11,826 nt of DNA from a virus. Lineage: Duplodnaviria; Heunggongvirae; Uroviricota; Caudoviricetes. A program made the position numbers and the translations under genes. The notes beneath the pieces are model-generated. The model saw only the letters and a list, made by a program, of their open reading frames with translations. It did no database searches and was not told the DNA's origin. Shown in pieces: positions 1-9,457 of this stretch. The first letter of the stretch is position 1; each line of letters opens with the position of its first letter. Where the stretch lies: the IMG/VR virus record IMGVR_UViG_2917403263_000006, positions 1 through 11,826 of that record; one strand, given 5' to 3'.

Positions 1-173
1 ATGGGGATTATGCCGAATAATGTTGGGGGGTTTGGGGATGTGAAAAGCGAGTTTAGTGTTTTTGAGGAATGAATTATTGCCATTGCAAAAAAGGATGATG
101 GAACTAAATAAATGGTTAGGCCATGAAATTTTGAAATTTGAGACATATATACTTAGCTAATTGCCATTTTTTA

Positions 174-211
174 AAAGCCACGCCAATAATTAATATTAGA
201 ACCGTGGCTTT
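174..211 (-). terminator. Hairpin (9-bp perfect stem AAAGCCACG/CGTGGCTTT, 20-nt loop) just downstream of the PIN-like gene stop; possible weak or bidirectional terminator
   Basis: Inverted repeat seen directly at 174-182 and 203-211, flanked by a T/A-rich tract (TTTTTTAAA on one side, TTTAATTT on the other). The loop is large and the U-tract is short, so strength is doubtful. Confidence 0.3.
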
Positions 212-229
212 AATTTAGAGCATTAGATA

Positions 230-1315
230 CTAACGTTTCAACCAAAGGTCATCTACAGAAAACGAATCGAATTCATTCTCAGATGGAGAATAAATAAAGC
301 TCACTGTAAAATACGGTCTAACCAAAATCTCTAAAGTCACAACGTCACCATCACCATGAGTAAATGGGAATGCCGAATCTAAATCGCTTTTATTTTCAAT
401 ATAATCCAAATAAGGAATATCCACTTCAATAAAAACCCGTCTCAAATTAAAAGAATAGGCAATGTAATATTTATCCGCATCAATTGAAGTGATGCCTTCA
501 ATATAGCCATCCTCGAAATCTTCGATGACATCAACTCTAACATCCAAAACATTCGAAACTCTAGACTCAAAAATATTATTTTCAAGGTATTGACTAAGCA
601 TCATGTGATTAAAACTTGATAAATAATCGATACACTCACCTTCTAGAAACTCCTCGAAATAAGGCTCACTTCTTGCATGATCAAAAGCATGGATACTCTT
701 ATCAATAGATGATGTAACGAAGTCAAATAGCTTCCGATATGGAGTTATTTTTTGTGTTATGCCTAACTCTTCAATATCTCTTAGAAGATCATCATTAAAC
801 GTTGCAGGACCTTTACTGTTGGTAAAAAAGTCTGAGCTATTCTCAGTAATAAATACAAAATCATCATTACCCCCTGATGATTTGATATATTGAAGAAAAG
901 ATAACCAGATCAACGTATCACGGTATCCTTTTTCTTGTTCTGAGAAAGGTTTTATCTTTTCAAGGGCCCTACCAACCACCTTAGCATGTGGAATATCGTT
1001 ATAATCTATTAAAATTAAATTATCAACTTCCTTATTTAATATTTCTTTCAAATCATATTGTTCAATACCTAAGTTTTCAATTTTAAAATCTATTGGATTC
1101 TGATTAAGCTTTTTAATTTTACTAATAATGGAACGCATTTCATTTAATTGATTTTTGAGCTCTCTATTCCTGATATTGTTAGTCTCCTCAATTACTAAAT
1201 TTGATAATAACAAGTCGTTACATTCATTATTCAAAAAATGGAAAAGAAGTTTAAAATTAGCATTTTTAGCAAACCAATTATTGTAAAATATATTTGTATC
1301 CAAAAAAACTTTCAT
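230..1315 (-). CDS. Hypothetical cargo protein with N-terminal PIN-like nuclease domain and about 190-aa C-terminal extension of unknown function
   Basis: 361-codon ORF, ATG at 1315-1313, TAG at 232-230. N-terminus MKVFLDTNIF matches the first acidic motif of PIN domains (hhhDTNhh), with further acidic positions (VIEE, ILIDYND, FVFITENSSDF) at PIN-like spacing. Strongly AT-rich relative to the phage backbone. A TATAAT -10 hexamer lies on the - strand at 1357-1352. Confidence 0.6.
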   Translation of the reverse strand: MKVFLDTNIFYNNWFAKNANFKLLFHFLNNECNDLLLSNLVIEETNNIRNRELKNQLNEMRSIISKIKKLNQNPIDFKIENLGIEQYDLKEILNKEVDNLILIDYNDIPHAKVVGRALEKIKPFSEQEKGYRDTLIWLSFLQYIKSSGGNDDFVFITENSSDFFTNSKGPATFNDDLLRDIEELGITQKITPYRKLFDFVTSSIDKSIHAFDHARSEPYFEEFLEGECIDYLSSFNHMMLSQYLENNIFESRVSNVLDVRVDVIEDFEDGYIEGITSIDADKYYIAYSFNLRRVFIEVDIPYLDYIENKSDLDSAFPFTHGDGDVVTLEILVRPYFTVSFIYSPSENEFDSFSVDDLWLKR

Positions 1316-1371
1316 CTGTCTTTTCCAGTGATGTAGTTAATAACATAGGTAATTATAAATTGAATTGTAGG

Positions 1372-1396
1372 CCGGATCCACTGATAGTGGATCCGG
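1372..1396. repeat. Perfect 25-bp palindrome CCGGATCCACT-GAT-AGTGGATCCGG (two GGATCC cores) upstream of the PIN-like gene; candidate operator or terminator hairpin
   Basis: Read directly: 11-bp arms are exact reverse complements around a 3-nt centre. It sits about 15-20 bp upstream of the - strand TATAAT at 1357-1352, where a -35 element would lie. Confidence 0.5.
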
Positions 1397-1838
1397 TTTA
1401 AAAGATTGCATTTATGGCAATGTCAAGTATAAAAACAACCACAACATAATGATTGTATATCCAAAGGCCGTCAGTAAATCATAGCAATTATCACTTACAG
1501 GGGATGTGCGATTTTAATCGTTCAGCCGCGCGCTCATATCCCCGCCACGCCTGCCCGCTTTATGTAGCGGTTTTCATGCAGGTGCATGATCTACGCAAAA
1601 TCCCACCAGTTCTGGCGGGCCTTAGCAAAAACGATCCGCAAACGATCATGCGATCTCATGCGGCATAGTCATGCACTTACGGGGGGAACTGAAATCCAGT
1701 AACCGAATGATCGCTTGAAAAACGAAACATACGTACTTACAAAGCACAAAGCCTGCTTTGAGCGAAGCGGACGTTAATAATGTTGCTGACCATCCCTAGT
1801 ACTTCTCATAATATAGCCCTATGTTAATCAACAAAATA

Positions 1839-2669
1839 TTAATTTGTCCCATCACTAAAGAATTTGATTGCGTCAGTTAGTACATAGTCAATGAAAATTT
1901 TTACGTGGAAGACCTGAAAAACGCTATTTTCTGAGTTTTGAATGAAATCTACAGCTATATCTTTTAGGTTGATCAACCAGTTATATTCTTCAATCAGTCT
2001 AGTTCTGGCATCCGCATCAGAATAACGACTCCGTAAGCTAAATGCCAGTTTCCTCATGATAACTGGATCAAGTTTCCTATAGCTTTCAATGAAAACATCA
2101 GCAGGAACTAAGTGTAAAAAAGGTACGTCATGAAGATTTAACTGTCTATTATTAGAATGACTCAATTCAGATAACAACGATGATTTTCCCCTTTGTAACT
2201 CATCTCTGAACTGCAATGCAAATTCCGAAATTGATTCATCAAACCGTTTCTTCCTTGCTATTTTAATATGTTCAATAATGAGCTTAAAGTCATCACTATC
2301 CCTGTCAAGAAAACTTAAACTACGCCATCCCCTTAATTCGTTATAATGCGTTTGCGCATATTCCTTATGTACATCTTCAGCTCTCAGTCTATTATAATAA
2401 TTATTTATATTCTGTTTTGTCTCATTTATGAGATCATGAACATCATCTGTTGTTAGACCTTCTTTCGCCATTTCCAGCAAAATACTCGCTGTCATCAGGA
2501 GTTCACCTAAGGTAGTGATCTTACCTGAAAATAGGTTATCCTTAGCAATAGCGTACTGCTCATAAAGCATAGTTTCATTTAGTTCTCTATAGTTCCACAA
2601 ACACCTCCATGCTGGTGAATCGCTGCTTCTAAAAAAAACGCGTAACATCCAACTGAGCAAGAAGATCAC
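1839..2669 (-). CDS. Hypothetical protein, predicted largely alpha-helical; either a separate partner gene of the upstream NTPase or its C-terminal continuation across a frame break
   Basis: 276-codon ORF (first codon GTG at 2669; internal ATGs at 2648 and 2570 have weak RBS), TAA at 1841-1839. It overlaps the NTPase ORF end by 41 nt, across an A8 run at 2631-2638. Same AT-rich composition as the NTPase ORF. No recognisable catalytic motif. Confidence 0.5.
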   Translation of the reverse strand: MIFLLSWMLRVFFRSSDSPAWRCLWNYRELNETMLYEQYAIAKDNLFSGKITTLGELLMTASILLEMAKEGLTTDDVHDLINETKQNINNYYNRLRAEDVHKEYAQTHYNELRGWRSLSFLDRDSDDFKLIIEHIKIARKKRFDESISEFALQFRDELQRGKSSLLSELSHSNNRQLNLHDVPFLHLVPADVFIESYRKLDPVIMRKLAFSLRSRYSDADARTRLIEEYNWLINLKDIAVDFIQNSENSVFQVFHVKIFIDYVLTDAIKFFSDGTN

Positions 2670-3732
2670 CCGTTACCTTTCCATCACAGATTAGTTCTCT
2701 CCAAGACGCGCCATCCAGTAACTTCTCGGTTAATACAGGAGACGAATATTTCTCGACAATCATGTCATACTTACTTTTGACGCGTTCTTTACCCAAAAAC
2801 ATACCATAATTAACATTGCCGATTGAATTGAAATCCTCGTAGCTAAGATTCCCTCCCCGGTACTCCATCGAAAAAATTAACAATTGATGAAAAAACACCC
2901 TTATAAATTCATCGTTACTTAAATATTTATCTCCCAAAAGGGAAATAATTCGTTGTACATCGAGAAAGAACTGCCTCAAGTGTCTTAGATTATTATAATT
3001 CGCTGACACATAGAGGTCCTCTATTGTCTGCATATCTTCTTTAAATATATTAGCAACATGCAAACTACTAATTACGCTCAAGAAAATCTTACAAGCACTA
3101 TGTAAATCTGACGTTACTTCAAATGTTTTACCTACTAGCTTTTCTTTTGTTCTCATGTATTCATTGCGATATTTCTCATCATCATTATTTATTCGCTTTT
3201 CTCTATTGATTATTTCATCTTCATTGGCAACCAAGATCGCTTTGTATCCGTTTACTTCCACAAAGTGATTTATATATCCAAATAAGATTGGTAAATCTAC
3301 ACCAGCTCTCTCGACATCATCAAAGACCAGCACAAAACCATCTGGTTTTCTAGTAAAGTCGCTAAGATTAATGGTGGGAACATTGCTATTGATATCTACG
3401 TCAGATTTATTATCGCCATTAAGATCGATCTTGAAAGTAGCCTTAAGCGTATTTTTTAGTACATTTGCACCAAAGATAAGGGCTTTGTTTGATAGGACAG
3501 GATGCAATTGACGATAGAACTCATCTTCAATCTGCTCAATAGAGTTGACGCCATACAAGCTCACTTTTAGAAATTTGAACTCTGAATGTTTCTGCTTATA
3601 TTCTTCAAGAACTCGTTCAATGAACCAAGTTTTACCTGATCCCCAAGCACCTTTAAGCATAATGGCGTATTGAGGTTCAGTTTTAAGGCTAAGGTAATAT
3701 TCTATATAGTCTTTGATGTACGTATTGTGCAT
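2629..3732 (-). CDS. P-loop NTPase, KAP-like (Walker A GAWGSGKT near the N-terminus; Walker B-like VLVFDDVER)
   Basis: ORF with ATG at 3732-3730 (the track ORF starts at an upstream TTG at 3783), TAG at 2631-2629. LKGAWGSGKTWFI fits the KAP-family G-x-W-G-S-G-K-S/T P-loop signature; VLVFDDVERAG fits the KAP hhhhDD-x-(D/E)R Walker B pattern. No obvious transmembrane segment. AT-rich. Candidate -10 TATAAT on the - strand at 3847-3842. Confidence 0.65.
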   Translation of the reverse strand: MHNTYIKDYIEYYLSLKTEPQYAIMLKGAWGSGKTWFIERVLEEYKQKHSEFKFLKVSLYGVNSIEQIEDEFYRQLHPVLSNKALIFGANVLKNTLKATFKIDLNGDNKSDVDINSNVPTINLSDFTRKPDGFVLVFDDVERAGVDLPILFGYINHFVEVNGYKAILVANEDEIINREKRINNDDEKYRNEYMRTKEKLVGKTFEVTSDLHSACKIFLSVISSLHVANIFKEDMQTIEDLYVSANYNNLRHLRQFFLDVQRIISLLGDKYLSNDEFIRVFFHQLLIFSMEYRGGNLSYEDFNSIGNVNYGMFLGKERVKSKYDMIVEKYSSPVLTEKLLDGASWRELICDGKVTGDLLAQLDVTRFF

Positions 3733-4053
3733 TTTTAGTCCATTTTTATAAAATACATAAACATAGATGGTAAGTAGAGCCAAAGGCCAACTATGGAAAA
3801 TTCAATCGGTAGTGTACATTGTAAGGTTATTATTGGTAAATATTATAGGAATACCCATAATCTTACAAAATTCAGATTATCCGTTGCAAATTAGTCTGCC
3901 ATTCGTTAATTGACGAAAGATAGCAGAAGAAATGTTCGCTTCTGGCACAAAGCGGACGATCACTTATAAAAATGACCGCCCACCTTACGCCTTATTTCAC
4001 TCATTGCCCAAACTAGCCCCCATCAGAATGAATCCTCCTGGGGGCAACATTTC

Positions 4054-4639: not shown

Positions 4640-6764
4640 TTAATACAGGTTCCGCCACTTATCATCTTCCTGCAAACGCTGGTTCCGATAGAAGATACGC
4701 AGGCCTGCTCCTGACGGAATACTGCCGCCGCGAAGGAGTAAATCGACCTCTTTCTCGCTACCATCAAATCCTCTGGACTTCAGTTCATAGGCGAGCTGCT
4801 GTCGCTGATGGTCTGTAATTCGCTGTTTGTAGTCTTTACGCCGTTTCGGTTTCACCAGGCGTAACCTTGCTGCCAGTTCCCGGCGCTCTTTTTTGCTCAT
4901 ACTGTGCAGGTAATCGTGCAACTCCTTGTCATCCATGCGGGTGATATCCGTTCTGGTATCCCCATCAGCTGATTTGTCTTTCCCTTGTTGGTTCAAATTT
5001 TCAGCAAGGGGACAGTTATTGCCACGAGTCCAAGGGGCGCAAGCGCCCTGGTCGGCTGCCGCCTCCTGAACGTCAACGGCCTTACGAACCATTTTCCACT
5101 TCACGGCATGAGTGCAGATCTTGCCCTCTGCAATGGGTGACCAGATGCCATAAATACGAATGCCGTGATCGCCATAGGCGGTCGGCTCTTCGTTGATTTC
5201 ATAAGCGGTTCTGATCAGGTGATATTTGCGGGGAACCAGTACGCCGCCCTGCTTCATGATGTAGGTGGCAAAACAACCAGCATCAGCAGCAGCCAGGATG
5301 GCATCAAGGCACGGGTTATCCAGTACCGGCGCACCTGCTTTTTTGTCCCCCTGTTGCCTTGCCGCCTGACCAGCCAGCAATCGCAGTTCACGGTAAGCCT
5401 GACGCCCCGGAATGCCAAAGAAGCGGAATTGCTGAACACGATGCAGAGACGCCCAGGCATTAACGTATTCAGCGTTATCACGCAGGGATTTACCCGTTTC
5501 CTTGCTGATCTCGCCAGCCAGACCACGCCCGTCAATGTTCTTACTGATGTATTTCGCGATGTAGCTTGTTGGCGTACCTTTACGCGGGTTAATCAACTCA
5601 GACTTAAAGCGCGGCCCAGTGTTATTGCCCAGCTCCTCGCGGTCTTCACGGATGGCAAACTTACGCAGTAATGCAGTGATGGCGCGGCGGTTCTTTTTTG
5701 TGCATAAAACACAACAGGTGCCAGTGAACTGTACCGTCATGATGCGGCTCAGCCACCCGCACGCCATACCAGCGCAATCCGGCTTTGTGCATCGCCTTAC
5801 GAAATGCAGCAAACATGCCGACCAGATAATCACTGCTTTGTCTTACCGTCGCATTTGTCCAGGTCGGGTTGGGCCTGCCGTTATTTAGCGTGGAATGGAA
5901 ACGTGACGGACAGGTGATGGTGTAGAAAACGGCGCAGTCACCGCGCATTTCCGCGATAAGCTCCAGACCTTTAACACAGGCCATCATCTCATTGCGGCGA
6001 TGCGCAGGGTTGCTGCTGCTGGCGTTTACCACATCCTCCATGTCCAGCGTGTCGCCGTCTTCGTTCACCAGTTCATGAGAACGGAAAAACTCCAGCGACT
6101 TACGGCGCTGCTCACGTTTATGCATCACGGCTTCATAGCTGACATAGGGAGATGCTTTTTTGCTGACCAGGCAAACAGCACGCAACTGCTCTTCCCGCCA
6201 TTCGCAACGCATCTTCCATAATTTCCGGTACCACCAGTCGGCGCACAACATACGTGCCAGCGAACCCGGAATGAGTTCATAGGGCACGGGTTTACGGCGG
6301 TTTCTTTTCCGGCGGAGTTGCTCAAACGCAGGCGGTATGACATCCAGTCGCAGGGTTTCTGCTGCCACCTTTTCCCATGTCTTGCGGATTTCTTCTGGCT
6401 TAACATCATCGGTGGCGTACAAATCACCACAAGCGGCATCAAGACACATGCTCATATGCGCAGCGACAAGAGTAGACAGGCGTTTCACCTGATCCTGACT
6501 CATTTCAGGCAAGTTCAGCAGGCCGTCCAGCCCTTCATGGCTTGCCATAAAGCGAAAAGAAGTGGATAGCTGACTCTCGCGTACATGCTCCAGTCGTTCC
6601 AGACATGGCTTAATCGTCTCACGCAAATAGCGGGAATAAGCCTTTGGCCTGCCCAGGCTGCTGAAGTATTCAATACGTTGCATCAGCGGCTTGCTGATAT
6701 GGGAAGGCTGGGCGTTAACGTCCGCCAGTATGACCATGTCCGGATTAAAAACGCTGCTGCTCAT
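4640..6764 (-). CDS. A: Replication initiation endonuclease gpA (P2/186 gene A, HUH rolling-circle nickase); reading frame is broken at the T6/A6 run 5694-5699 in the sequence as given
   Basis: Two ORFs in frames offset by one (5661-6863 and 4640-5833). The upstream half ends with the HUH motif [15 protein letters not shown]. The downstream half carries the active-site pair [13 protein letters not shown] about 50 residues later, the same spacing as in P2 gpA. Deleting one A restores ...[14 protein letters not shown]... as one protein of about 700 aa. Start is uncertain (ATG 6764, 6737 or 6833; none has a strong RBS). Confidence 0.85.
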
Positions 6765-7056
6765 GCGCCAGCTTTGCCCGGCTAATGAGCTTATCCTGCT
6801 CCATTTCGCGTTGGACAGGATCACGGGATTCATTAAAGAAATAACGCTCCCAGACCTGATCACTCAGTGCCTCGAGGCGCAGTTGTTCCTGCTCGTTATC
6901 GGCAGCGTACAGAGTGATCAGGTTTGAAAGCGCAGAAACCGGCGCAACTTCCGCCGGGTCCAGATAAGGGTTAATAGCCTTTTTCGGGCTGTTCCATGAG
7001 AATGCTGCGGCGGCCTCGTTAAAGCCGCTGCAGTTGTTCATATCAGCATGGCTCAT
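6745..7056 (-). CDS. Hypothetical phage early protein (103 aa)
   Basis: ORF whose ATG overlaps the dam stop in an ATGA stop-start overlap (7053-7056), suggesting translational coupling. No motif recognised. Confidence 0.5.
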
Positions 7057-7910
7057 GCACGCACTCCGTACACGGCAGAACTATCCACGCCACGCGAAGG
7101 ATCAAATCCCACCCAGCAGCGCACCCCAGAAACAGCGATGATTTCTGTTGCAGATTTACTCTCACCAGCTGCTACGCCGATGCTGCGTTTTGCCTTGATG
7201 TAGTGGTGAGTGAAATTGCGATACAGCGAACGGATCAGGGATGTGTCACTGTTAGAAACAATGACCGGATGTCCTTCTGATGACCGATGTTCAAGAACGG
7301 ATGCCAGGTGATACTGGTCATCTTCAGTGAAGCCGTCAGTGTGATAACCGGAAAACGTACCGTCATAAGGCGGATCGCAATACACCACATCCCCCACCTG
7401 CAGCATCGCCAGCGTTTCATCAAAGCTGGCGCAGATAAACGTTGCTCGCTGGGCTTTCTCTGCAAATGCGCGAATTTCTTTTTCAGGGAAATACGGATTT
7501 TTATAATTACCGTATGGAATGTTGAAATGCCCGCTCTTGTTATAACGACATAACCCACGGTAACCGTGACGATTGAGATACAGGAAATATACCGCTTTCA
7601 TGAAATCAGTAATTTCAGTTGAGTAATTAAACTCCTGTCTTATGTTGTAATAAGTCACCTCCCTGTTTGCGTCCTCAAATAAAGCTCTGGCACGAGATAT
7701 AAACACCTCACAATCAGCGGCAACCTTTTTATAGAGGTTGATTAAATCAGGATTAATATCCGCAACCAGATAGCAGGGATAATCCGTCTCCATCATCACA
7801 GCACAGGAACCCGCGAAAGGTTCAACCAGTCGCGGGCCAGCAGGAAGGTGTTTTTTCAGTTCGGACATAATGGCGGTTTTATTTCCCGCCCATTTCAGGA
7901 TGGTGCTCAT
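7053..7910 (-). CDS. dam: DNA adenine N6-methyltransferase (Dam-like)
   Basis: 286 codons from ATG 7910-7908 (GGAGGTG RBS; ATGA overlap with the upstream gene stop). N-terminus [11 protein letters not shown] with PFAGSCAV (AdoMet-binding FxGxG-like) and catalytic [12 protein letters not shown] (DPPY motif). The track ORF 7053-7970 includes a 20-codon 5-prime extension that is unlikely to be translated. Confidence 0.85.
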
Positions 7911-8134
7911 ACAGCACCTCCGTTGTAATGTTTGCCTTTCAGCTCTGCAATTTCCTGGCAGGTAATGCAAAGCTGCACACCCGGAATGGCACGGCGGCGT
8001 GCTGGCGGAATTGGCGCTTCACACTCAATGCAAAGCACGCGAGACACGCCCGGTGTTTTGGCACGGGCAGCACGGATATGGCGCTGGCGTTCTTCTTCAA
8101 CGCGCTGCTGTACGAGATCCATTGCATCAGCCAT
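7907..8134 (-). CDS. TraR/DksA-family C4 zinc-finger protein
   Basis: 75 aa, ATG 8134-8132 with AGGAG 8 nt upstream. Two CxxC pairs (CIECEAPIP ... CITCQ) in the DksA/TraR arrangement. P2-family early regions carry such a gene. Confidence 0.75.
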   Translation of the reverse strand: MADAMDLVQQRVEEERQRHIRAARAKTPGVSRVLCIECEAPIPPARRRAIPGVQLCITCQEIAELKGKHYNGGAV

Positions 8135-8367
8135 TAGTGGATCTCCTGCGCTTCGTTCTGGATTGCTTCAGCAGTCACACGCAGCAGTTCTGCTGCTTCC
8201 ACGTGGTTTAGCTGGCGGGATGTGATATGACACGCCAGGCTATCAAGGCGGGCAGCCATTGCCTCAGCCCTTGCCCGACGTTCTTCAAGACGGGCCTCTG
8301 TCAGTAAAAGATTAAGACCTGCATCATCCGGTCCGGTTTTAGTCGTGAGGGTTTCAATATTACGCAT
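8134..8367 (-). CDS. Hypothetical small phage early protein (77 aa; resembles the small Arg/Glu-rich helical proteins of P2-family early regions)
   Basis: ATG at 8367-8365 preceded by AGGAG (8-nt spacer); the track start at 8373 is a TTG. Its TAA stop overlaps the next ATG (TAATG). Confidence 0.55.
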   Translation of the reverse strand: MRNIETLTTKTGPDDAGLNLLLTEARLEERRARAEAMAARLDSLACHITSRQLNHVEAAELLRVTAEAIQNEAQEIH

Positions 8368-8434
8368 AATCAATTCTCCTGAATTTAGATAAAGGGATGC
8401 CCGGCGGGTTTACGCCATGAATTTCATTAATTGG

Positions 8435-8776
8435 TTAATTCGGCATGGTTAGCCGTCTGGGAAATAAGCTCACCACTGCACGAAAATGATTCATTGCTTT
8501 AATCAGCTCCCGCTTTTCGTCAGTGGTCAGCTCATTAATGCTGATGCTATGACGTTCAGCTGGAATTTTTGCCATAAAGAATATGGCAGCCAGTGCCCGT
8601 TTATTTTGTTCATTATTGATATCCCGTGGATCACGCATATCTTTAATAAACCGCTCAAGCTCTGACTCAATATTAAGGCCAAATACTTTCGCCCTTAACT
8701 CCGCAATATGATTAAGTCCATTCAGGCGTTCACCGGGGCTTAATGGAACAGTCGCCGCAGCGCCTTCAATAGCCAT
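8435..8776 (-). CDS. Hypothetical phage early protein (113 aa)
   Basis: ORF with ATG at 8776-8774 preceded by a G-rich RBS; overlaps the upstream small ORF by 37 nt in another frame. No motif recognised. Confidence 0.5.
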   Translation of the reverse strand: MAIEGAAATVPLSPGERLNGLNHIAELRAKVFGLNIESELERFIKDMRDPRDINNEQNKRALAAIFFMAKIPAERHSISINELTTDEKRELIKAMNHFRAVVSLFPRRLTMPN

Positions 8777-8940
8777 TTGTTCCCCCGTTTTTTCGTTGAT
8801 AGTTCTGCCAGCAATTCATCTTGTGAATGGCATGGATGCCAGCGTTTACCATCCTCACCCATGATCCAGCCGTGACCGTAGTGCATTGCCGGGCTTTGTT
8901 TTACCAGCAGCGATGCAAATGATGGTTCTTTCGTCAGCAT
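8740..8940 (-). CDS. Hypothetical small protein (66 aa) immediately after cII, in the position of the 186 fil-like gene
   Basis: ATG at 8940-8938 preceded by GAGGTG (4-nt spacer), which overlaps the cII stop. Contains HGW...HPCH. Function unknown. Confidence 0.4.
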   Translation of the reverse strand: MLTKEPSFASLLVKQSPAMHYGHGWIMGEDGKRWHPCHSQDELLAELSTKKRGNKWLLKALRRLFH

Positions 8941-8947
8941 AAGCACC

Positions 8948-9457
8948 TCACAGCAAACCGAATGAAGCACCGAGGCCAGTCACGGTATCAACTGCACTCG
9001 CCATCGCAGGATTAGCCTGTAAACGGGCCTGCAATGAAACAGCCGCCAGCGCCATCAGTCGTGTTACAGAGTTAATGCTGCTGATAGCATCACGACGACC
9101 TGCACTGGTTTTTACATCGCCAGATACCGCACCTGCAGCAACACGCCCGATCTCTGCGGTTGCACTCATGACGTAATGCGGCAGTTTCTCTTTTGCCACT
9201 TCATTAATCGGTACACATGGCAGGCAGTGAATCTGTGCCAGAAAGCCATCTACCAGCGTTGAATCTTCAGTCAGATCGGTAAGCAACCAGATTTCTGGTG
9301 CGGTTAATAAATGAGGTTGAGCTGGGTTCAGCTTGTTCCGCAGAATCTGTACATTCATGCCTGCACGTTCTGCCAGTTGCACTAGGTTGTGGCGCAGTGC
9401 GAATGCACGACAGGCTTCATCAAAATGTGGATGTTTGGAAACTTGGTAATCAAACAT
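8948..9457 (-). CDS. cII: CII-like lysogeny establishment activator (phage 186 CII family)
   Basis: 169 codons from ATG 9457-9455 (the track ORF starts at an upstream TTG). [24 protein letters not shown]...[25 protein letters not shown] closely matches the 186 CII sequence as I recall it, and the length equals 186 CII (169 aa). Confidence 0.7.

What the first reader, a model, noticed from the sequence alone, without database searches (positions are those of the whole stretch)
230..1315. Stand-alone PIN-like nuclease-domain protein as a second, independently transcribed cargo gene
A 361-aa protein begins with MKVFLDTNIF, a PIN-domain motif, followed by acidic residues at PIN-like spacing and an unassigned C-terminal domain of about 190 aa. 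It is the most AT-rich gene in the window. It is separated from the NTPase cassette by 523 bp containing a perfect palindrome and a compositionally different segment, and is followed by a hairpin, so it looks like its own module. I found no adjacent antitoxin-sized ORF, which argues against a classical VapBC pair; a single-gene effector or a third component of the NTPase system are both open.
Basis: partly seen in the sequence, partly recalled or inferred. Interest (0 to 1): 0.65.

Follow-up and report, generated by a model that had tools for sequence, protein, structure and literature searches.

The report
Stand-alone PIN nuclease gene in prophage
A P2/186-like E. coli prophage carries, in the normally empty gap between its packaging site (cos) and its portal gene, a self-contained gene for a two-domain PIN-family nuclease that is most likely a one-protein anti-phage defence, a distant untested relative of the recently described 'Cosus' defence protein.

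Summary
ORF 230-1315 (minus strand, 361 aa) is real, starts MKVFLDTNIF and has the lowest GC in the window (0.306). It matches Pfam PIN_12/DUF4935 over the whole profile (E 2.3e-27). Its model (pLDDT 93.6) has a VapC-type PIN domain with an invariant D6/E44/D133/D162 tetrad, plus a conserved C-terminal cystatin/NTF2-like domain.

It is an independent single-gene module, not part of the NTPase system:
- The phage cos site lies between the two genes (1533-1551), so they sit at opposite ends of the packaged genome.
- The identical PIN protein occurs in sister prophages beside three different right-end cargoes.
- No neighbour is conserved across 26 homolog loci, and one homolog is an integron cassette.

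The "NTPase cassette" is one 630-aa KAP NTPase gene, split here by an extra T in a T8 run, probably an assembly error.

The nearest characterised relative is Cosus (Brc24), a PIN_12 single-gene integron cassette that blocks T7. The link is only at family level (about 13% identity).

The most likely function is a prophage-encoded, sensor-coupled RNase that excludes other phages (confidence about 0.6, untested). This is a new member of a known kind, in a known hotspot. Interest is moderate.

The parts
1..72 (+). 3' end of the phage portal gene (P2 Q / 186 W homolog), convergent with the PIN gene
   Evidence: ORF 1..72 ends at a stop codon. Megablast places window 1-~200 on the 'phage portal protein' gene of E. 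coli P2-like prophages. A 342-aa PF04860 portal gene follows the identical PIN gene in L039-L043.
174..211 (.). Hairpin between the convergent portal and PIN genes; terminator-like on both strands
   Evidence: Perfect 9-nt arms 174-182 and 203-211. RNA fold on the minus strand gives dG -19.6, z -4.67, followed by UUUUAAAAAA. On the plus strand dG is -15.3, z -3.89, followed by UUUAAUUU. It occupies the place of terminator tQ/tW in P2 and 186. It is partly conserved in L002.
230..1315 (-). PIN_12/DUF4935-family gene, 361 aa (stop codon at 230-232)
   Evidence: The identical protein is found on at least 24 contigs.
701..1315 (-). N-terminal VapC-type PIN domain (residues 1-~205) with a long helical insert after beta2 (helix 39-70). 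Invariant D6, E44, D133 and D162, plus S38, N8, N47 and the motif EKGYRD (128-133).
233..700 (-). C-terminal domain (residues ~206-361): helices 213-251 packed on a long curved antiparallel sheet; cystatin/NTF2-like fold. Near-invariant D205, H209, E265, E268, D269, Y284, R292, R333, S339.
1352..1426 (-). Candidate promoter region for the PIN gene, read by eye and not called by the scanner. Candidate 1: -35 TTGACA (1426-1421), 17 nt, -10 TTTTAA (1403-1398). Candidate 2: -10 TATAAT (1357-1352) with a weak -35 that overlaps the palindrome.
   Evidence: Read directly from the sequence. The TTGACA box and the region as a whole are conserved in the 91%-identical cassette L002. The consensus scan reported no site here, so this is inference only.
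1372..1396 (.). Perfect 11-bp-arm palindrome CCGGATCCACT-GAT-AGTGGATCCGG between the candidate promoter elements. It could be an operator or a 5'-UTR hairpin. It is not a canonical terminator on the PIN strand because no U-run follows.
   Evidence: repeat I1. One search gives dG -19.8 and z -5.73. It is imperfectly conserved in L002 and absent upstream of the 65%-identical homolog in L006.
1533..1551 (-). cos cohesive-end site of the P2/186-like phage (GGCGTGGCGGGGATATGAG, then CGCGCG). It divides the gpA-gpQ hotspot into a right-end slot holding the KAP NTPase and a left-end slot holding the PIN gene.
   Evidence: GGCGWGGCGGGG occurs once in the window and in 0 of 200 shuffles. It aligns with the annotated cosL of P2 (NC_001895 1-19) and 186 (NC_001317 1-19). 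The same motif lies just upstream of the PIN gene in L002-L005 and L039-L043. The segment 1527-1677 is 92-95% identical to Fels-2, RE2010 and Klebsiella P2-like phages.
1839..3732 (-). Context, not part of the module: a single KAP-family P-loop NTPase gene (PADLOC candidate PDC-S49), split in this window by one extra T in a T8 run at ~2632-2640
   Evidence: The two ORFs match PDC-S49 profile positions 3-349 and 360-614. Pfam gives KAP_NTPase. Against the intact 630-aa ML35 gene there is one gap in 1894 nt. The gene is intact at 630 aa in L039, L040 and L042. The indel context is shown.

Best explanation
The gene encodes a self-contained, one-protein accessory ('moron') function of a P2/186-like E. 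coli prophage, most likely an anti-phage exclusion or abortive-infection nuclease.

Shown:
- It is a full-length member of the DUF4935/PIN_12 family.
- It has an N-terminal VapC-type PIN domain with a complete, invariant acidic tetrad (D6, E44, D133, D162).
- It has a conserved C-terminal cystatin/NTF2-like domain.
- It sits alone in the cosL-portal spacer, which is gene-free in P2 and 186.
- It is physically and evolutionarily uncoupled from the KAP NTPase on the other side of cos.
- It has no conserved partner anywhere. In another genus it travels as a single-gene integron cassette.

Inferred:
- It is transcribed from its own promoter in the lysogen.
- The PIN domain is a Mg2+/Mn2+-dependent endoribonuclease held inactive in uninfected cells. 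The C-terminal domain would do this, possibly through the protein's oligomeric state, rather than a separate antitoxin.
- A signal from an infecting heterologous phage, either a phage protein or a small ligand bound by the NTF2-like pocket, releases the nuclease.
- The nuclease then cuts phage or host RNA and stops phage production, which protects the lysogen population and the resident prophage.

The functional inference rests on two things. The first is the location in the known P2 defence hotspot. The second is Cosus (Brc24), a PIN_12 single-gene cassette that gives more than 1e5-fold protection against T7. That protection depends on D14, which is the residue equivalent to D6 here.
For: Family and fold:
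- Pfam PIN_12 at E 2.3e-27 over the whole profile.
- 174 homologs with 100% coverage at about 361 aa.
- 3,774 representative clusters at E <= 1e-3, mostly aligned over the full length.
- Invariant D6, E44, D133 and D162.

Independence:
- cos at 1533-1551 lies between the KAP and PIN genes.
- The P2 and 186 cosL-portal spacers are about 170-190 bp and hold only a terminator.
- The identical PIN protein occurs with a KAP NTPase, with RNase_A_bac plus CdiI_2, or with DUF8087 in the other slot.
- The 91% homolog follows cos with no KAP gene.
- The 65% homolog sits next to the portal gene, after three unrelated genes.
- No neighbour family is shared among 26 loci.
- The small upstream ORFs in relatives match no antitoxin family.
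- The homolog in L010 is flanked by attC-like repeats inside a cassette array.

Defence context:
- The gpA-gpQ interval next to cos is the established P2 defence hotspot (PMC9122126 and PMC13586616).
- Neighbours of the chromosomal homologs include HEPN_AbiU2, ThsB-TIR with MazG_C and HMUDK_hel, Mrr_cat, putAbiC, Trypsin_2 and PNP_UDP_1.
- GC is 0.306 against about 0.5 for the backbone, which marks acquired cargo.

Precedent:
- Cosus/Brc24 (bioRxiv 10.1101/2024.07.02.601719) is also full-length PIN_12 (E 2.4e-36, residues 11-180 = profile 1-172).
- Profile position 4 is therefore D14 in Cosus and D6 here.
- A broad family profile aligns the two PIN domains in register: E44 with E52, S38 with T46, D133 with D153 (hhalign E 8.3e-4, HMMER 5e-5).
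- The two models share the same order of secondary-structure elements.
Against: - There is no experimental datum for this protein or its subfamily.
- The link to Cosus is only at family level. BLASTP finds nothing, and the narrow profiles do not find each other.
- In Cosus only T12A, D14A and D96A were reported as defective among the roughly 11-12 mutants, which included D153A and D177A. Those two are canonical PIN acidic positions by my alignment, so even for Cosus a simple nuclease mechanism is not established.
- There is no PADLOC hit.
- There is no homolog in 50,697 GenBank phage records or in IMG/VR.
- The gene is absent from 5,426 complete E. coli genomes, so phage carriage is rare.
- The promoter, the trigger and the RNA target are all inferred.
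Confidence: 0.6

Rival explanations
1. It is the toxin of an addiction or toxin-antitoxin module whose antitoxin was not recognised. The antitoxin could be a small RNA, a micro-ORF or an antitoxin supplied in trans. Its role would be to stabilise the prophage rather than to defend against other phages.
For: - The fold is VapC-like.
- A perfect palindrome sits in the promoter region, where toxin-antitoxin operators usually lie.
- Tiny ORFs of 24 and 35 aa overlap the palindrome.
- Cosus carries an 11% fitness cost and was toxic in P. aeruginosa at high expression.
Against: - There is no ORF of 50 aa or more on either side.
- The upstream region and the palindrome are not conserved in the 65% homolog.
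- No neighbour family is conserved in 26 loci.
- The small upstream ORFs in relatives hit no antitoxin family.
- The family is reported as mono-cistronic (PMC5499597).
- A homolog and Cosus both travel as single-gene integron cassettes.
- The protein is 361 aa with a conserved second domain, unlike VapC toxins of about 135 aa.
Confidence: 0.12
2. It is a nuclease that serves the phage's own life cycle. It might degrade host RNA or DNA during lytic growth, act as a counter-defence, or help packaging because it lies next to cos.
For: - It lies next to cos and the portal and terminase genes.
- PIN-like nucleases take part in nucleic-acid processing (PMC5499597).
- Phage variable regions also carry counter-defence genes (PMC9122126).
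Against: - P2, 186 and most P2-like phages have no gene in this spacer.
- ML35 has an unrelated gene there.
- There is no homolog in GenBank phages or IMG/VR.
- Most family members are chromosomal or in integron cassettes.
- The gene is convergent with the late portal/terminase operon, separated from it by a terminator-like hairpin, and has a foreign GC content.
Confidence: 0.12
3. It is a third component of the neighbouring KAP NTPase (PDC-S49) system, for example its nuclease effector.
For: - The two genes are adjacent, on the same strand and both AT-rich.
- NTPase-plus-nuclease pairs are common in defence systems (general knowledge).
- Most contigs that carry the identical PIN protein also carry the KAP gene.
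Against: - cos and terminator-like sites lie between them.
- The identical PIN protein occurs with RNase_A_bac/CdiI_2 or DUF8087 in place of KAP.
- The KAP gene occurs with an unrelated 223-aa gene in place of PIN in ML35 and many other E. coli genomes.
- The closest PIN homologs have no KAP gene.
- PADLOC lists PDC-S49 as a single-gene candidate, and PIN matches no PADLOC model.
Confidence: 0.03
4. It is a non-functional or catalytically irrelevant remnant carried passively in a variable region.
For: - The window shows several frameshifted genes.
- There are no functional data.
Against: - The ORF is intact and 100% identical on at least 24 contigs.
- All window frameshifts are homopolymer +1 artefacts, and none lies in the PIN gene.
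- The catalytic tetrad and many C-terminal residues are invariant across 62 homologs down to 36% identity.
- The family is very large, with full-length conservation.
Confidence: 0.05

Closest known systems
Cosus (Brc24; ALG87191.1, plasmid pKAZ2 KR827391.1), a single-gene bacteriophage-resistance integron cassette (bioRxiv 10.1101/2024.07.02.601719)
   Same: - Both match Pfam PIN_12 over the entire 172-position profile.
- They are similar in size (361 vs 382 aa).
- They have the same order of secondary-structure elements: a PIN core with a ~32-residue helix after beta2, then helices plus a long antiparallel sheet.
- Both are single-gene mobile units with no partner, and a homolog of the target is itself an integron cassette.
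- Cosus D14, needed for T7 defence, corresponds to D6 here.
   Different: - Identity is about 13% over the PIN domain. BLASTP finds no hit, and the narrow profiles do not match. Only a broad profile gives E 8e-4 to 5e-5, and only over the PIN half.
- Equivalence of the C-terminal domains is not demonstrated.
- The fourth acidic position differs: here T-E-N159-S-S-D162-F, in Cosus S-Q-D177-K-G-W-K-N182-F.
- The carrier differs: the cosL-portal slot of a P2-like prophage against a class 1 integron.
- The target is untested.
DUF4935 / PIN_12 family (PF16289) as defined by Matelska et al. 2017 (PMC5499597)
   Same: The target fits the published description exactly: about 350 aa, an N-terminal VapC-group PIN domain with conserved acidic residues and a long helical insert after S2, a C-terminal alpha/beta region without sequence homologs, mono-cistronic genes and unknown function.
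   Different: - The paper gives no function, no fold for the C-terminal region and no phage context.
- Here the C-terminal region is assigned to the cystatin/NTF2-like fold class.
- The gene is placed in a phage defence hotspot.
VapC toxins of type II VapBC toxin-antitoxin systems
   Different: - There is no VapB antitoxin gene.
- The protein is 361 aa rather than about 135 aa.
- It has a large helical insert and a second domain.
- The NCBIfam PIN-toxin model scores below its threshold (15.2 vs 29.15 bits).
Cargo of the P2 gpA-gpQ defence hotspot (old, tin and others; Rousset et al. 2022, PMC9122126; NAR 2026, PMC13586616)
   Same: It lies in the same interval next to cos in a P2-like E. coli prophage. 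It is AT-rich acquired cargo, and the content varies between otherwise syntenic prophages.
   Different: - The papers treat gpA-gpQ as one hotspot.
- Here the cargo falls into two slots on either side of cos, and these slots swap independently.
- PIN_12 is not mentioned in either paper.
- The gene is absent from 5,426 complete E. coli genomes.

Membership tests
Pfam PIN_12 / DUF4935 (PF16289) | Sequence score above the curated gathering threshold over the domain | tested here: met
   96.9 bits against a cut-off of 32, E 2.3e-27; residues 3-163 cover profile positions 1-172 of 172.
Pfam PIN_12 / DUF4935 (PF16289) | Protein of about 350 aa with an N-terminal PIN region and a C-terminal alpha/beta region (Matelska 2017) | tested here: met
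   The protein is 361 aa. The model shows a PIN core at 1-~205 and helices plus a beta-sheet at 206-361. Full length is conserved in homologs.
Pfam PIN_12 / DUF4935 (PF16289) | Mono-cistronic gene organisation | tested here: met
   No conserved neighbour in 26 loci. The gene is flanked by cos and a terminator-like hairpin in the window.
PIN-domain nuclease superfamily (VapC group) | PIN fold (alpha/beta/alpha sandwich with a parallel sheet) | tested here: met
PIN-domain nuclease superfamily (VapC group) | Three to four conserved acidic residues at the C-terminal ends of the strands that form the metal site | tested here: met
   D6, E44, D133 and D162 are invariant in 62 sequences and lie at the expected topological positions.
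PIN-domain nuclease superfamily (VapC group) | Metal-dependent nuclease activity | not testable with these tools
   This needs a biochemical assay.
VapBC type II toxin-antitoxin system | Adjacent, usually upstream and overlapping, antitoxin gene (VapB: AbrB/RHH/Phd/HTH) | tested here: not met
   No ORF of 50 aa or more flanks the gene. There is no conserved neighbour. Small upstream ORFs in relatives hit no antitoxin family.
VapBC type II toxin-antitoxin system | Single-domain toxin of about 130-150 aa that matches the PIN toxin models | tested here: not met
   The protein is 361 aa with two domains. TIGR00305 scores 15.2 bits, below its 29.15 cut-off.
Cosus (Brc24) defence system | PIN_12 domain protein acting as a single gene | tested here: met
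   Both proteins match PF16289 over its full length. The target is a single-gene module.
Cosus (Brc24) defence system | Demonstrable homology to Brc24 along the whole protein | tested here: inconclusive
Cosus (Brc24) defence system | Protection against phage (T7) that depends on D14 and T12 | not testable with these tools
   The residue equivalent to D14 is D6, which is invariant. The position equivalent to T12 is F4 here. The phenotype needs an experiment.
P2-like gpA-gpQ defence-hotspot cargo | Located between the replication gene A and the portal gene Q, next to cos, in a P2-like prophage | tested here: met
   The window order is gpA (4640-6863), DinI, KAP, cos (1533-1551), PIN, portal (1-72). 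The same order holds in L039-L043.
P2-like gpA-gpQ defence-hotspot cargo | Content varies between otherwise syntenic prophages | tested here: met
   P2 and 186 have an empty slot. ML35 has an unrelated 223-aa gene. L006 has three other genes plus PIN. The right-end slot varies independently.
P2-like gpA-gpQ defence-hotspot cargo | Anti-phage phenotype | not testable with these tools
   This needs plaque assays.
KAP NTPase system (PADLOC PDC-S49) component | Obligate co-occurrence with the KAP NTPase gene | tested here: not met
   The identical PIN protein occurs without KAP in L041 and L043. KAP occurs without PIN in ML35 and other genomes. Homologs in L002 and L006 have no KAP gene.

The most novel reading that the evidence does not exclude
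The target may represent a large, experimentally untouched branch of autonomous 'PIN + NTF2-like sensor' nucleases (thousands of clusters). In these the ligand- or protein-binding cone domain would replace the antitoxin as the switch of a VapC-type RNase. This would be a one-protein immune sensor-effector that is mechanistically distinct from Cosus and from toxin-antitoxin systems. Separately, the P2 'hotspot' is really two independently exchanging cargo slots on either side of cos, with the left-end slot (cosL-portal) as a previously unseparated site.
Probability: 0.3. Interest if true: 0.55.

Novelty: new member of a known kind. Interest (0 to 1): 0.38.

Why it matters
If the gene defends against phages, it extends the only validated PIN_12 defence (Cosus, known from one integron cassette) to a very divergent and much larger branch. 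That branch has 3,774 representative clusters at 50% identity. It would also show that temperate phages, as well as integrons, spread the family.

It offers a tractable model for a specific question: how is a VapC-type nuclease kept silent and then triggered without an antitoxin? The high-confidence model of a conserved NTF2/cystatin-like domain gives a concrete hypothesis for the switch.

The comparative data also refine the map of the P2 defence hotspot. cos splits it into two slots whose cargoes swap independently. This matters for annotating 'systems' there, because adjacent genes across cos should not be merged into one system.

Practically, the finding warns that the apparent two-gene NTPase 'cassette' and the split gpA in this window are homopolymer artefacts.

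Tried and rejected
1. PADLOC, PHROGs and NCBIfam scans of the target gave no informative hit.
2. tblastn against 50,697 phage records found nothing. Two IMG/VR scans found nothing. blastn in distant mode against 5,426 complete E. coli genomes found nothing.
4. Direct links to Cosus failed by BLASTP, by hhalign of the two narrow family alignments and by reciprocal HMMER. Only a broadened 170-sequence profile aligned the PIN halves.
7. The gcu24 sequence in the preprint's supplement is corrupted by OCR. It was replaced by the authentic plasmid copy.
8. The hypothesis that PIN is the effector of the KAP NTPase was considered and rejected.
9. The hypothesis that the palindrome is the KAP terminator was rejected. 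No U-run follows it on that strand, while better terminator-like sites lie at 1619-1602 and 1653-1636.
10. The idea that the prophage is decayed was rejected in favour of homopolymer assembly errors.
11. A search for a conserved antitoxin among the small upstream ORFs of relatives was negative.
Full report
**1. The observation**

The ORF at 230-1315 on the minus strand is real. It has an ATG start, encodes 361 aa and begins MKVFLDTNIF. Its GC content is 0.306, the lowest of any gene in the window. The neighbouring NTPase has 0.354 and the phage backbone has about 0.5.

The 523-bp spacer to the next gene is also as described.
- It holds a perfect palindrome with 11-bp arms: CCGGATCCACT (1372-1382), GAT, AGTGGATCCGG (1386-1396). 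Its fold energy is -19.8 kcal/mol with z -5.7.
- It holds a GC-rich segment.
- Downstream of the stop codon there is a hairpin with arms 174-182 and 203-211. Its fold energy is -19.6 with z -4.7, and UUUU follows on the PIN strand. It also folds on the opposite strand, which carries the convergent portal gene.
- No ORF of 50 aa or more flanks the gene.

**2. What the protein is**

Pfam places residues 3-163 on the complete 172-position PIN_12 (PF16289, formerly DUF4935) profile, at E 2.3e-27 and 96.9 bits against a cut-off of 32. PADLOC, PHROGs and NCBIfam gave nothing useful.

A search of 5.8 billion proteins returned 174 homologs. Nearly all are 358-370 aa and cover 100% of the query. An exhaustive profile search of 1.84 billion cluster representatives found 3,774 at E <= 1e-3 and 2,095 at E <= 1e-10. 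These are again mostly aligned end to end. The C-terminal half is therefore an integral, conserved part of the family.

In a 62-sequence alignment the invariant residues include D6, E44, D133 (in the motif EKGYRD) and D162, together with S38, N8 and N47.

The four invariant acidic residues sit after beta1, after beta2, at the start of helix 131-147 and after beta4. These are the canonical PIN metal-site positions. I could not measure their spatial clustering.

This fits the 2017 in-silico description of DUF4935. That paper describes proteins of about 350 aa with an N-terminal VapC-group PIN domain and a long helical insert. The C-terminal alpha/beta region had no known homolog. The genes were 'usually expressed as mono-cistrons' and the function was unknown (PMC5499597).

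**3. Where it sits**

The window is the early region of a P2/186-like prophage. In order it holds the integrase, a CI-type repressor, CP76, a zf-DksA/TraR protein, Dam, gpA, DinI, a KAP NTPase, the PIN gene and the 3' end of the portal gene.

The GC-rich part of the spacer contains GGCGTGGCGGGGATATGAG followed by CGCGCG, read on the minus strand from 1551 down to 1533.
- The core GGCGWGGCGGGG occurs once in the window and in none of 200 shuffles.
- It aligns with the annotated cohesive ends of P2 (GGCGAGGCGGGGAAAGCAC) and 186 (GGCGTGGCGGGGAAAGCAT).
- The surrounding 1527-1677 segment is 92-95% identical to other P2-like phages.

In P2 and 186 the distance from cosL to the portal stop codon is only about 170-190 bp and holds just a terminator. 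Here it is about 1.47 kb and holds the PIN gene.

The PIN gene therefore lies at the left end of the packaged genome, in the order cosL, PIN, portal. The KAP NTPase lies at the right end, in the classical tin/old position. Published work treats the whole gpA-gpQ interval 'adjacent to cos' as one defence hotspot (PMC9122126 and PMC13586616). Neither paper mentions PIN_12.

**4. Independence from the NTPase**

The exact 361-aa protein is recorded in 46 blocks of the assembly collection, and 24 contigs were read. All are the same prophage type. In one case (L043) the host flank is 99.8% identical to E. coli.

Across cos, always at the same position, the right-end slot holds one of three cargoes:
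- an intact 630-aa KAP NTPase (L039, L040, L042);
- an RNase_A_bac plus CdiI_2 pair (L041);
- a DUF8087 gene (L043).

Other comparisons agree.
- E. coli ML35 and many other genomes carry the KAP gene with an unrelated 223-aa gene in the PIN slot.
- A 91%-identical homolog follows cos directly in a degraded prophage that has no KAP gene.
- A 65%-identical homolog lies next to the portal gene behind three unrelated genes of unknown function, with cos upstream of all four.
- Across 26 loci from many genera, an all-against-all BLAST of neighbours within 5 kb found no shared family except the PIN protein itself.
- Small same-strand upstream ORFs in some loci hit no antitoxin family.
- In Paraglaciecola the homolog is bounded by attC-like repeats that end in GTTAG/GTTAT, inside an array of such repeats. 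It is therefore a single-gene integron cassette.
- Neighbours elsewhere have a defence-island character but are all different. They include HEPN_AbiU2, MazG_C with ThsB-TIR and HMUDK_hel, Mrr_cat, putAbiC, Trypsin_2 and PNP_UDP_1.

The 'third component of the NTPase system' reading is therefore rejected, and the 'stand-alone module' reading is supported.

**5. The closest characterised relative**

A full-text search for PIN_12 led to the preprint 'Mobile integrons encode phage defense systems' (bioRxiv 10.1101/2024.07.02.601719). Its cassette brc24, named Cosus, is a single gene with a PIN_12 domain.
- It gives complete resistance to T7 in E. coli.
- T12A, D14A and D96A reduce protection by more than 1e5-fold.
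- The protein is predicted to be hexameric and costs about 11% in fitness.

The supplement's sequence was corrupted by OCR. I recovered the authentic gene from plasmid pKAZ2 (KR827391.1, ALG87191.1, 382 aa). It too covers the whole PIN_12 profile (E 2.4e-36, residues 11-180). Profile position 4 is therefore D14 in Cosus and D6 in the target.

The two proteins are very distant.
- BLASTP finds nothing.
- hhalign of the two family alignments gives a probability of 0.7%.
- Reciprocal HMMER is non-significant.
- After I added distant full-length members to make a 170-sequence profile, the PIN halves aligned in register. E44 pairs with E52, S38 with T46 and D133 with D153. The scores are hhalign E 8.3e-4 over 188 columns at 13% identity, and HMMER 5e-5. 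The C-terminal halves gave only domain E-values of 0.04-0.08.

One caution applies. The preprint's primer table shows that D153A and D177A were also made, yet only T12A, D14A and D96A are reported as defective. By my alignment D153 and D177 are canonical PIN acidic positions and D96 lies in the helical insert. Even for Cosus, therefore, a plain nuclease mechanism is not established.

**6. The most likely mechanism**

Shown:
- a complete PIN catalytic signature;
- a conserved second domain of a fold class that typically binds ligands or proteins;
- single-gene mobility;
- a location in a phage defence hotspot;
- a foreign base composition.

Inferred:
- The gene is expressed in the lysogen from its own promoter. 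Candidates are TTGACA (1426-1421) with TTTTAA (1403-1398), or TATAAT (1357-1352). The palindrome lies between them and could be an operator or a 5'-UTR hairpin. The consensus scanner called neither candidate.
- The protein is an RNase that is kept off by its C-terminal domain or its oligomeric state, rather than by an antitoxin.
- An infecting phage supplies the activating signal.
- RNA cleavage then aborts the infection.

I put this explanation at about 0.6. The rivals are:
- an addiction toxin with an unrecognised RNA or micro-ORF antitoxin (0.12);
- a nuclease that serves the phage's own cycle or acts as a counter-defence (0.12);
- a passive remnant (0.05);
- a KAP NTPase partner (0.03).

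**7. Novelty and score**

The family was described in 2017. A member was shown to be a defence gene in 2024/25. The hotspot has been known since 2022. The finding is therefore a new member of a known kind.

Three things are new:
- the fold assignment of the C-terminal domain;
- the placement of a very divergent PIN_12 branch on a temperate phage;
- the demonstration that cos divides the P2 hotspot into two slots that exchange cargo independently.

The gene is rare on phages. It has no homolog in GenBank phages, in IMG/VR or in 5,426 complete E. coli genomes. A specialist would not be surprised by a PIN gene in this hotspot. The antitoxin-free control of a VapC-type nuclease is a worthwhile, testable question. 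Interest: 0.38.

Noticed in passing
window 1533-1551 (minus strand); conserved segment 1527-1677: This is the phage cos site (GGCGTGGCGGGGATATGAG + CGCGCG), 15 of 19 identical to the 186 cohesive end (14 of 19 to P2). It splits the gpA-gpQ 'hotspot' into a right-end slot (gpA to cos) and a left-end slot (cosL to portal) that change cargo independently.
   Followed up: yes
window 1839-3783, junction at ~2632-2640: The two NTPase ORFs (384 and 276 aa) are one KAP-family NTPase gene (PADLOC candidate PDC-S49, PHROG 4740). It is broken by a single extra T in a T8 run. The gene is an intact 630 aa in E. coli ML35 and in L039, L040 and L042.
   Followed up: yes
window ~6751, ~5692, ~4580, ~2638, ~1686, ~43: Every indel between the window and the 98.3%-identical relative L039 lies in or next to a homopolymer run: five single extra bases in the window and one 2-nt deletion at ~43. 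This splits gpA (804 aa in relatives) into ORFs 4640-5833 and 5661-6863. It probably also garbles the integrase C-terminus. This is the pattern of assembly or sequencing error, not prophage decay.
   Followed up: partly
L041 8307-9434; L043 9050-9385: In sister prophages the right-end slot holds a bacterial RNase A-like toxin (PF18431) with a CdiI_2 immunity-like gene (PF18593), or a DUF8087 gene, in place of the KAP NTPase. None of these hits PADLOC.
   Followed up: partly
L006/L007 5586-7793: A three-gene block (368, 147 and 214 aa) lies between cos and the PIN homolog in the left-end slot. It has no Pfam or PADLOC match and is a candidate unknown defence system.
   Followed up: partly
L001 4235-4906 (E. 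coli ML35, WP_000885505.1): An unrelated 223-aa hypothetical protein occupies the cosL-portal slot in ML35 and, judging by the megablast hits, in many E. coli P2-like prophages. It has no Pfam or PADLOC hit.
   Followed up: partly
L039-L042 19539-20525; L002 12465-14266: A further variable slot lies between tail gene S and baseplate gene V. It holds a 328-aa DUF6602 protein with PD-(D/E)xK / NucC-like PADLOC hits, or a 245-aa unknown, or an AAA_15/AAA_21 ATPase with a 229-aa partner.
   Followed up: no
L010 (Paraglaciecola chathamensis) 3000-14000: This is a chromosomal integron cassette array. Imperfect repeats of 77-120 nt that end in GTTAG/GTTAT separate short ORFs. The PIN homolog (8001-9086) is one cassette, with repeats at 7852-7959 and 9108-9184.
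   Followed up: partly
L009 (Azotobacter chroococcum) 497-3235: A three-gene run sits immediately upstream of the PIN homolog (42-bp gap): MazG_C, ThsB-like TIR and the 5-hmdU DNA kinase helical domain. This is a conflict-system neighbourhood, and co-transcription with the PIN gene is possible in this one genome.
   Followed up: no
proteins P0216, P0220, P0226, P0233: Cosus-branch proteins of about 462-467 aa carry an N-terminal cold-shock domain (PF00313) fused to PIN_12, which hints at an RNA or ssDNA substrate. P0182 of the same branch is labelled 'NTF2 superfamily protein' by JGI.
   Followed up: no
bioRxiv 10.1101/2024.07.02.601719, supplement Table S2 and main text: Cosus mutants D153A and D177A were constructed but are not among the three mutants reported as defective (T12A, D14A, D96A). 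By alignment D153 and D177 are canonical PIN acidic positions, while D96 maps to the helical insert. The catalytic model for Cosus is therefore unsettled. Some mutant labels (D6, E42) do not match the numbering of ALG87191.1.
   Followed up: partly
window 1372-1396: The perfect palindrome contains two BamHI sites (GGATCC) and lies between the candidate -35 and -10 elements of the PIN gene. It is degraded in the 91%-identical cassette (L002) and absent in L006, so it is not a conserved requirement of the family.
   Followed up: partly
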